Shown one piece after another: positions 51,464 through 51,917 of a stretch of DNA of 64,000 nt (positions within the stretch are counted from its first letter, which is position 1; each line of letters starts with the position of its first letter). Where the stretch lies: the NCBI RefSeq assembly GCF_006345805.1, contig NC_043011.1, forward strand, positions 31,322,464-31,386,463. The letters run 5' to 3'. The DNA comes from Octopus sinensis. Its lineage: Eukaryota. The position numbers and the translations under genes were made by a program. Below the pieces are notes generated by a model. The model was not told the DNA's origin. It ran no database searches and worked only from the letters and a program-made list of their open reading frames with translations.

Positions 51464-51660
51464 CTTTTTCTATTCCTGAGCGCTATACTAATACATTTGT
51501 TTGTTTGTACTCCACCTGCCTTCGTCTTTTGTTTATTTTCGTAAACTTTCCCTTTATATATATATATATATATATGTAGGTCCCGGGTTGAGTCGGGGTT
51601 AACCACAGTAAATAAGGTACTCAATACATAGCAGAGTAAATTAATTTATTTTATAGAAGG

Positions 51661-51711
51661 AGCTTCTACAGGACTAGAACTGTTTCATTCAAAAGAAATC
51701 ATCAGGAAGCT
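51661..51711 (-). ncRNA. Type I hammerhead motif (minus arm of fold-back)
   Basis: AGCTTC-CTGATGA-TTTCTTTTGAAT-GAAA-CAG-TTCTAGTC-CTG-TA-GAAGCT. Confidence 0.8.
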
Positions 51712-51806
51712 AGGTGACAAGAATAGTTTTGGCATTTATACACTTAGGCAGGTTTAAAGTGTATAAATGCCTAAGTGTATAAATGCCAAAACTATTCTTG
51801 TCACCT

Positions 51807-51856
51807 AGCTTCCTGATGATTTCTTTGAATGAAACAGTTCTAGTCCTGTAGAAGCT
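51807..51856 (+). ncRNA. Type I hammerhead motif (plus arm of fold-back)
   Basis: 6-bp stem I AGCTTC/GAAGCT, CTGATGA 51813-19, weak stem II, GAAA 51831-34, stem III CAG/CTG, GUA site with cleavage predicted after 51850. Confidence 0.8.
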
Positions 51857-51871
51857 CCTTCTATAAAATAA

Positions 51872-51917
<46 letters not shown>

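What the first reader, a model, noticed from the sequence alone, without database searches (positions are those of the whole stretch)
51577..51874. Ambisense hammerhead fold-back resembling a viroid-like rod
Arms 51644-51750 and 51768-51873 are about 107-bp near-perfect reverse complements, each with the same hammerhead, so a transcript from either strand contains one ribozyme plus its antisense. The RNA could switch between a long dsRNA rod (inactive, Dicer/ADAR substrate) and the ribozyme fold. Near-identity of the arms implies recent formation, probably during insertion.
Basis: partly seen in the sequence, partly recalled or inferred. Interest (0 to 1): 0.75.

Follow-up and report, generated by a model that had tools for sequence, protein, structure and literature searches.

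The report
Head-to-head stub of Penelope retrotransposon
This mirror-image repeat is one of hundreds of short back-to-back stubs of a Penelope-type jumping gene in an octopus genome, not a viroid-like RNA; half of the family's arms stop at one base just before the ribozyme motif, which likely marks the start of the element's RNA and hints at how such insertions are likely built.

Summary
The inverted repeat is real: arms 51644-51750 and 51768-51873 differ by one base, and each holds a type I hammerhead motif. It is the terminal repeat (pLTR) of a Hydra-clade Penelope-like retrotransposon (PLE), inserted head-to-head into (TA)n, with the family's tail on one side only. It lies in an intron of a MYCBPAP-like gene. 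The layout is published for PLEs and is the family norm: 1,781 exact core matches, and 52 of 69 sampled loci are head-to-head. The viroid-like switch is not supported: the ribozyme fold is about 80 kcal/mol less stable than the rod, and nothing points to a circle or replication. The family statistics are the useful part. 51 of 102 sampled arms stop at the two bases before stem I, 29 nt after a TATAAA box. 252 sites share one zero-spacer palindrome. Both arms share the loop II variant in 46 of 50. A second family shows a similar pile-up. This best fits two cDNAs primed from the two cut DNA ends, run off at the likely RNA start and joined head-to-head. This copy runs past that site. RNA start and cleavage are untested. 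Unchecked notes of this scan report the same reading in other genomes.

The parts
51555..51575 (.). (TA)n target microsatellite, left side; its last ATAT also matches the element's own sequence after the tail
   Evidence: sequence; full-length copies read GGGACCTACATAT then 5' UTR
51576..51643 (-). PLE 'tail' (about 68 nt), present on this arm only; in full-length copies it continues into the 5' UTR and ORF
   Evidence: one tail in 48 of 52 head-to-head pairs
51644..51759 (-). left arm: pLTR end of a Hydra-clade PLE (element positions 1-116)
51662..51710 (-). type I hammerhead motif, left arm; predicted cleavage between 51667 and 51666
   Evidence: activity untested
51735..51740 (-). TATAAA box, 29 nt upstream of the likely RNA start at 51711
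   Evidence: family 5'-end pile-up
51757..51787 (+). junction with a 16-nt tandem duplication, flanked by AAG and TGCC microhomologies; unique in the genome; holds a second TATAAA at 51762
51768..51873 (+). right arm: tail-less pLTR end (element positions 10-116)
51778..51783 (+). TATAAA box, 29 nt upstream of the likely RNA start at 51807
51808..51855 (+). type I hammerhead motif, right arm (stem I GCTTC/GAAGC, U10.1.U11.1, 3-bp stem II, near-palindromic stem III); predicted cleavage after 51850
   Evidence: activity untested
51874..51936 (.). (TA)n-rich target microsatellite, right side
47164..47235 (+). nearest upstream exon match of the MYCBPAP-like host gene; later exon matches lie at 58677-58763 (weak) and beyond the window, so the insertion is intronic

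Best explanation
This is a 5'-truncated, head-to-head insertion of the hammerhead-bearing terminal repeat of a Hydra-clade Penelope-like retrotransposon into a (TA)n tract, likely built from two cDNAs primed from the two cut DNA ends and then joined. Shown: family identity, target, one-sided tail, head-to-head layout as the norm, a sharp pile-up of arm ends just before stem I, and variants shared by both arms. Inferred: the RT/GIY-YIG protein cuts both strands in (TA)n; one end primes at the tail end, the other at the AAAT site about 68 nt inside; both copy RNA from one source. In about half of the family's arms the cDNA runs off at A49/G50, the likely transcription start 29 nt after TATAAA, and the two 3' ends join, most often through the self-complementary AGCT. 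In this copy both cDNAs went 40-50 nt further, so the template was likely a read-through RNA from a tandem or tailed copy, and repair left a 16-nt duplication. The fold-back is a by-product; in host pre-mRNA it would form a rod that masks the ribozyme.
For: Same-sense link to an RT plus GIY-YIG ORF: 11 of 30 RT-bearing loci carry pLTR or tail about 520 nt upstream of the RT match, and 8 aligned copies run from the tail into an ATG and ORF. Hydra motifs present. 1,781 exact core matches. Of 69 loci formed by the first 100 matches on contig C1, 52 are head-to-head and 48 of those 52 have one tail. 51 of 102 arms stop within 3 nt upstream of C51. 252 zero-spacer palindromes; 113 with 1-31 nt spacers, and by hand 39 of the first 50 listed end at the same site in both arms. 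Loop II variant shared by both arms in 46 of 50 palindromes, against a shuffled mean of 20.2 and maximum of 30; one locus has a private core change in both arms. A second family (47% amino-acid identity) has wholly different stems around the same core and 414 short fold-backs turning near the CTAG before stem I. PAc protein cuts and extends both strands, starts RT at two sites bounding the tail, and does not need ribozyme cleavage for insertion (PMC11167929).
Against: No raw RNA reads, so the RNA start is inferred from DNA alone. This copy belongs to the half that runs past the site. 17 of 69 loci showed no partner in the 1.5-5 kb fetched. In family 2 the pile-up is looser (8 of 30 arms end 10-17 nt before the core), its TATA-like box lies 32 nt before the A, and 6 of 30 rows read TCTAGAT. 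Shared variants could also come from conversion between arms after insertion. The stop site is also a pyrimidine-rich CTAG that looks like a splice acceptor. D. virilis Penelope has a TATA-less internal promoter (PMC2377424).
Confidence: 0.7

Rival explanations
1. Same element, but the inversion arises from one cDNA that snaps back on itself, or from self-priming on an antisense template (the reading of PMC3846280).
For: Both arms share variants, as one template copied and folded back would give. Short templated inserts are common at junctions. PMC3846280 argues for self-priming from palindromes at inverted junctions.
Against: The commonest junction has no loop at all (252 sites), which fits two ends annealed at AGCT better than a hairpin. 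The tail sits on either arm relative to the ORF (L031 against L047). The tail-less arm ends at a fixed internal site that matches the second RT start described for PAc.
Confidence: 0.17
2. The palindromic stub is itself a non-autonomous mini-element (MITE- or retrozyme-like) that is copied as a unit.
For: 252 sites share one identical centre.
Against: Arm lengths are continuous from zero spacer to over 6 kb. Each loop II subfamily has its own palindromes with concordant arms. Junction inserts differ from site to site. This window's junction occurs once in the genome.
Confidence: 0.05
3. The pile-up marks a 3' splice site or another RNA processing site at the base of stem I, not the transcription start.
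For: In both families a pyrimidine-rich stretch and CTAG precede stem I. In D. virilis the intron end maps to the 5' end of helix I (PMC4209133).
Against: Most arms keep the AG or G that splicing would remove, and no common upstream exon appears at junctions. Some subfamilies have CCAAG or GCAAG there. No splice joint was listed in contigs of four runs guessed to be RNA (weak).
Confidence: 0.1
4. One reading: a viroid-like ambisense RNA that switches between rod and ribozyme folds.
For: Hammerhead motif on both strands, a very stable rod, and an intronic position that could give read-through RNA.
Against: About 80 kcal/mol separates the folds, and hammerhead pair probabilities are 0.000 in the full RNA. 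No head-to-tail unit that could release a circle. The structure is one of hundreds of insertion by-products.
Confidence: 0.03

Closest known systems
Hydra clade of C-terminal EN+ Penelope-like elements (Craig et al. 2021, PMC8557442; passages and section 11 read, supplements not read)
   Same: RWK-like motif (RWR here), DKT, CxCX5C linker, CxxC and CxH around the conserved E and N, hammerhead in the pLTR, insertion into (TA)n, inverted 5'-truncated copy, one-sided tail.
   Different: Tail about 68 nt rather than 30-40; about 3.1 kb from linker to hammerhead in two long copies, so longer than the 'generally <3 kb' stated; a 5'-end pile-up is not mentioned in what I read.
Typical EN+ Penelope structure with inverted pLTR and tail (Adineta vaga Pen2a/Pen3, PMC3846280, passages and Discussion read; D. 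virilis Penelope, PMC2377424, abstract and passages read)
   Same: Head-to-head inverted pLTRs, palindromes at the junction, optional tail, TATA-like motif in the pLTR.
   Different: Here there is no ORF between the arms, and hundreds of copies allow counting; the paper explains the palindromes by antisense self-priming, whereas these counts favour two-ended priming.
PLE minimal and variant type I hammerheads (Cervera and de la Pena 2014, PMC4209133, parts 1-2 of 4 read) and PAc of Anolis (PMC11167929, parts 1-2 of 4 read)
   Same: Type I core in the pLTR, weak stems, near-palindromic stem III suited to dimers; dual motifs on opposite strands 100-700 bp apart are already noted there.
   Different: U10.1.U11.1 instead of G10.1-C11.1 (a natural variant per PMC3088659, passages read); stem III of 4 bp with an 8-nt loop; motif sits at the likely first bases of the RNA.
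Hammerhead viroids (Avsunviroidae) and metazoan non-LTR retrozymes (PMC7229834, passages read; bioRxiv 10.64898/2026.07.22.740005, part 1 of 5 read)
   Same: Hammerhead motif; a rod-like fold is possible.
   Different: Those are circles cut from head-to-tail multimers. This is a DNA palindrome whose second ribozyme is the inverted copy of the first. Viroid features are recalled, apart from the cited passages.

Membership tests
EN+ Penelope-like element | Single ORF with RT and C-terminal GIY-YIG endonuclease linked to the repeat | tested here: met
   Linked in the same sense in long copies; RT and GIY-YIG motifs read by eye. Pfam gave no hit for P0001 and PDB sequence search none. The window's copy itself has no ORF.
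EN+ Penelope-like element | pLTR from partial tandem, inverted 5'-truncated copy, tail at one end | tested here: met
   definition from PMC8557442
EN+ Penelope-like element | Hammerhead motif in the pLTR | tested here: met
Hydra clade | RWK motif and DKG changed to DKT | tested here: met
   RIRWRSFFF and PSDKTK in family copies; RLRWKAFFF in family 2; definition
Hydra clade | CxCX5C linker; CxxC and CxH on either side of conserved E and N | tested here: met
   CNCPDKTTC, CDLC..E..N..CMH in many copies
Hydra clade | Insertion into (TA)n | tested here: met
Hydra clade | Placement in the clade by RT phylogeny | not tested
   No reference PLE proteins were fetched
Type I hammerhead ribozyme | Core CUGANGA, GAAA, UH with three stems | tested here: met
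   six full-length copies found by protein vary only at N7 and in loops II and III; family 2 has different paired stems round the same core
Type I hammerhead ribozyme | G10.1-C11.1 pair | tested here: not met
   U.U here, A.A in family 2; PMC3088659 reports natural U10.1-U11.1 variants
Type I hammerhead ribozyme | Self-cleavage | not testable with these tools
   Single-arm fold is 3.0-4.6 kcal/mol above the ensemble; a stem III duplex of -9.4 to -14.8 kcal/mol favours a dimer
Viroid or viroid-like RNA | Not an integrated DNA repeat; distinct ribozymes in each polarity | tested here: not met
   Genomic transposon end; the two motifs are one inverted sequence
Viroid or viroid-like RNA | Circular RNA replicating by rolling circle | not testable with these tools
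   Only contigs were offered
Non-LTR retrozyme | Head-to-tail tandem units each with a hammerhead | tested here: not met
   1 direct pair against 30 head-to-head among 69 loci by exact pattern; none at this locus

The most novel reading that the evidence does not exclude
The stubs record the PLE insertion reaction: both ends of the cut (TA)n target prime reverse transcription on the element's 5' leader, both cDNAs run off at the RNA's first base, and their ends are joined head-to-head, which explains the inverted pLTR and one-sided tail of the whole class. In Hydra-clade elements the hammerhead occupies the first 45 bases of a TATA-driven transcript, so it is placed to remove the cap, and uncut RNA is the main template.
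Probability: 0.5. Interest if true: 0.65.

Novelty: new member of a known kind. Interest (0 to 1): 0.4.

Why it matters
As a locus it is ordinary: one of hundreds of PLE stubs. As a population it bears on an open question, how PLEs make inverted pLTRs with a tail on one side, which PMC3846280 and PMC11167929 leave unsettled. The sharp stop site gives a base-exact prediction of the RNA start, and puts the ribozyme at the very 5' end of the transcript; both are cheap to test. Intronic fold-backs like this one would also be long perfect dsRNA in octopus pre-mRNA, a natural set of candidate ADAR or Dicer substrates, though untested here.

Tried and rejected
Rfam: no match at gathering score; only hairpin-type weak matches at E<=10. 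Unconstrained folding of single arms is no better than shuffles, z -0.11 to 0.63. Pfam and PDB did not recognise P0001; the Atlas gave no result for it. Neptune clade: my first label, dropped after the Hydra motifs were checked. Cap-derived extra G: 83 G against 17 C before AGCTTCC in the first 100 of 401 matches (hand count), but in 16 of 30 loci examined the G comes from the partner arm, so it is not used as evidence. In vivo cleavage signature: 11 sites have one arm ending at the predicted cut, but the stem I complementarity alone explains that joint, so it is not evidence of cleavage. Conservation of the core is partly circular, because many loci were found by a core pattern. DNA contigs of four runs did not bridge this junction; repeats swamp the stretch. 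No RNA holder is on record; four runs guessed to be RNA hold the hammerhead region as contigs only, which cannot show start, strand or editing. A target-site duplication cannot be read in the microsatellite. The alignment covers 8 of 11 chosen loci, and the script stopped on a missing key after printing it. Literature searches showed no paper describing two-ended priming or a start-site pile-up for PLEs; subscription journals and the supplements of PMC8557442, which may list this family, were not seen.

Full report
Observation. The window has the inverted repeat as described. Arms 51644-51750 and 51768-51873 differ only by one base in hammerhead loop II, with 17 nt between them. Each arm has the core CTGATGA..GAAAC and a GTA triplet, stem I GCTTC/GAAGC, a 3-bp stem II closed by U.U, and a 4-bp stem III whose loop is near-palindromic. 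The whole RNA folds into a rod of -196.2 kcal/mol. Rfam does not recognise the hammerhead, and single arms fold no better than shuffles.

What it is. The arm is a repeat with 1,781 exact matches to a 30-31 nt core pattern in the genome. Long copies carry an ORF with RT and GIY-YIG motifs in the same sense as the hammerhead. Of 30 loci found by the RT, 11 have pLTR or tail sequence about 520 nt upstream in the same sense. In 8 aligned copies the sequence runs from the tail through a short 5' UTR into an ATG and the ORF. The protein has RWR, DKT, a CxCX5C linker, and CxxC and CxH around the conserved E and N. These match the Hydra clade as defined in PMC8557442, as does insertion into (TA)n; no tree was built. 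In the window the left arm (51576-51759, minus strand) carries the 68-nt tail and the right arm stops at the tail-less AAAT site, with (TA)n on both sides. The 17-nt centre is 9 nt of native left-arm sequence plus part of a 16-nt duplication with AAG and TGCC microhomologies; this junction occurs once in the genome. Exon matches to octopus MYCBP-associated proteins flank the site on the + strand, so it is intronic.

Fold-back against single-arm copies. The first 100 core matches on contig C1 form 69 loci: by exact pattern 30 head-to-head, none tail-to-tail, 1 direct, 38 single. After fetching all 69 and relaxing the match, 52 are head-to-head and 17 show no partner within the 1.5-5 kb fetched; 48 of the 52 have exactly one tail; two complex loci also hold a tail-to-tail-like pair. 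This is the published PLE layout, and dual hammerheads on opposite strands are already noted in PMC4209133.

Where arms stop. 51 of 102 arms in that sample stop within 3 nt upstream of C51, that is at A49 or G50, the bases that open stem I; nearly all others run past position 10. Genome-wide, 252 sites share one zero-spacer palindrome centred on AAG|CTT, and 113 more have spacers of 1-31 nt; by hand, 39 of the first 50 listed end at the same site in both arms, often with short inserts copied from the arms. A49 lies 29 nt after a TATAAA box. In 96 long arms the box is nearly invariant while positions 31-48 vary by subfamily. In 50 palindromes from 49 loci, both arms share the loop II variant in 46 (shuffled mean 20.2, maximum 30), and one locus has a private core change in both arms, so the palindromes look built anew from different sources. 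A second family with 47% amino-acid identity has different paired stems around the same core, 2,910 core matches and 414 short fold-backs that mostly turn at the CTAG before stem I. Its pile-up is looser, 8 of 30 arms, and its TATA-like box is less clean. Contigs of four runs guessed to be RNA all show loose ends at A49, two of them reading as the palindrome, so the junction class is not peculiar to this assembly.

How it most likely works. PAc protein cuts and extends both strands of AT-rich DNA, starts reverse transcription at two sites bounding the tail, and uses uncut RNA (PMC11167929). The counts fit two cDNAs, one primed from each cut end at the two start sites, that stop and are joined head-to-head. 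Stopping at A49/G50 is most simply run-off at the RNA's 5' end, with AGCT giving a 4-nt overlap. This copy's arms extend 40-50 nt past that site, so its template was likely a read-through RNA from a tandem or tailed copy. Both arms here keep the TATA box, so any transcription from them would run outward and hold one ribozyme without its antisense. These steps are inferred. The rival of antisense self-priming (PMC3846280) is not excluded, nor is a splice-site reading of the stop.

In the full fold-back, forcing the hammerhead costs 81.0 or 79.5 kcal/mol and its pairs have probability 0.000; in a single arm it costs 3.0-4.6 kcal/mol, and a stem III dimer is favoured. The antisense arm is made first on either strand. 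A host pre-mRNA would thus carry a stable rod with the ribozyme masked, not a switch. U10.1.U11.1 is a known natural variant. Nothing suggests a circle; retrozyme circles come from head-to-tail tandems.

What failed. An apparent cap-derived G was mostly explained by the partner arm. Eleven joints at the predicted cleavage site are explained by stem I complementarity. This junction was not bridged by listed contigs. No raw RNA reads were offered.

Novelty and verdict. The element is a new family member of a known clade in a known layout. My paper searches showed no description of two-ended priming or a start-site pile-up in PLEs. I reached this reading before the look-up; unchecked notes of this scan report the same reading in other genomes and for another repeat in this one, which is not independent support. 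Interest 0.4: ordinary as a locus, useful as a testable record of PLE insertion.

Noticed in passing
window 51381-51556: Directly left of the insertion lies the end of another, more abundant repeat (deeper cover) with a minimal hammerhead-like motif at about 51426-51462 whose core reads CTGTCGA, a change at position 6; stem II GAGC/GCTC folds. The fold-back landed in its terminal (TA)n.
   Followed up: partly
window 2411-2440, 10069-10101, 10312-10344, 13116-13150: Four more hammerhead-core pattern matches; the pair at 10069 (-) and 10312 (+) is head-to-head and looks like a fold-back of another family.
   Followed up: no
window 4409-47235 and flanks: A MYCBPAP-like gene on the + strand spans the whole window, with exon matches to octopus proteins from upstream of the window to about 28 kb downstream.
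   Followed up: partly
L212-L221: A second, younger-looking Hydra-type PLE family with long open frames of about 727 codons, 2,910 hammerhead core matches, an A10.1.A11.1 closing pair and the same fold-back habit.
   Followed up: partly
L032 3361-6165: An AP-endonuclease/RT LINE with a PHD finger sits between the two arms of one family member; a PHD-bearing frame also lies at window 54786-55649.
   Followed up: no
window 48866-49210 (-): Short frame with an integrase core (rve) match, probably an LTR retrotransposon fragment.
   Followed up: no
L138: One ORF-bearing copy begins within 2 nt of the predicted hammerhead cleavage site; a single case, compatible with a cut template.
   Followed up: no
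L057: One palindrome arm shows six A-to-G differences from its partner within 58 nt, a pattern that could reflect an edited RNA template.
   Followed up: no
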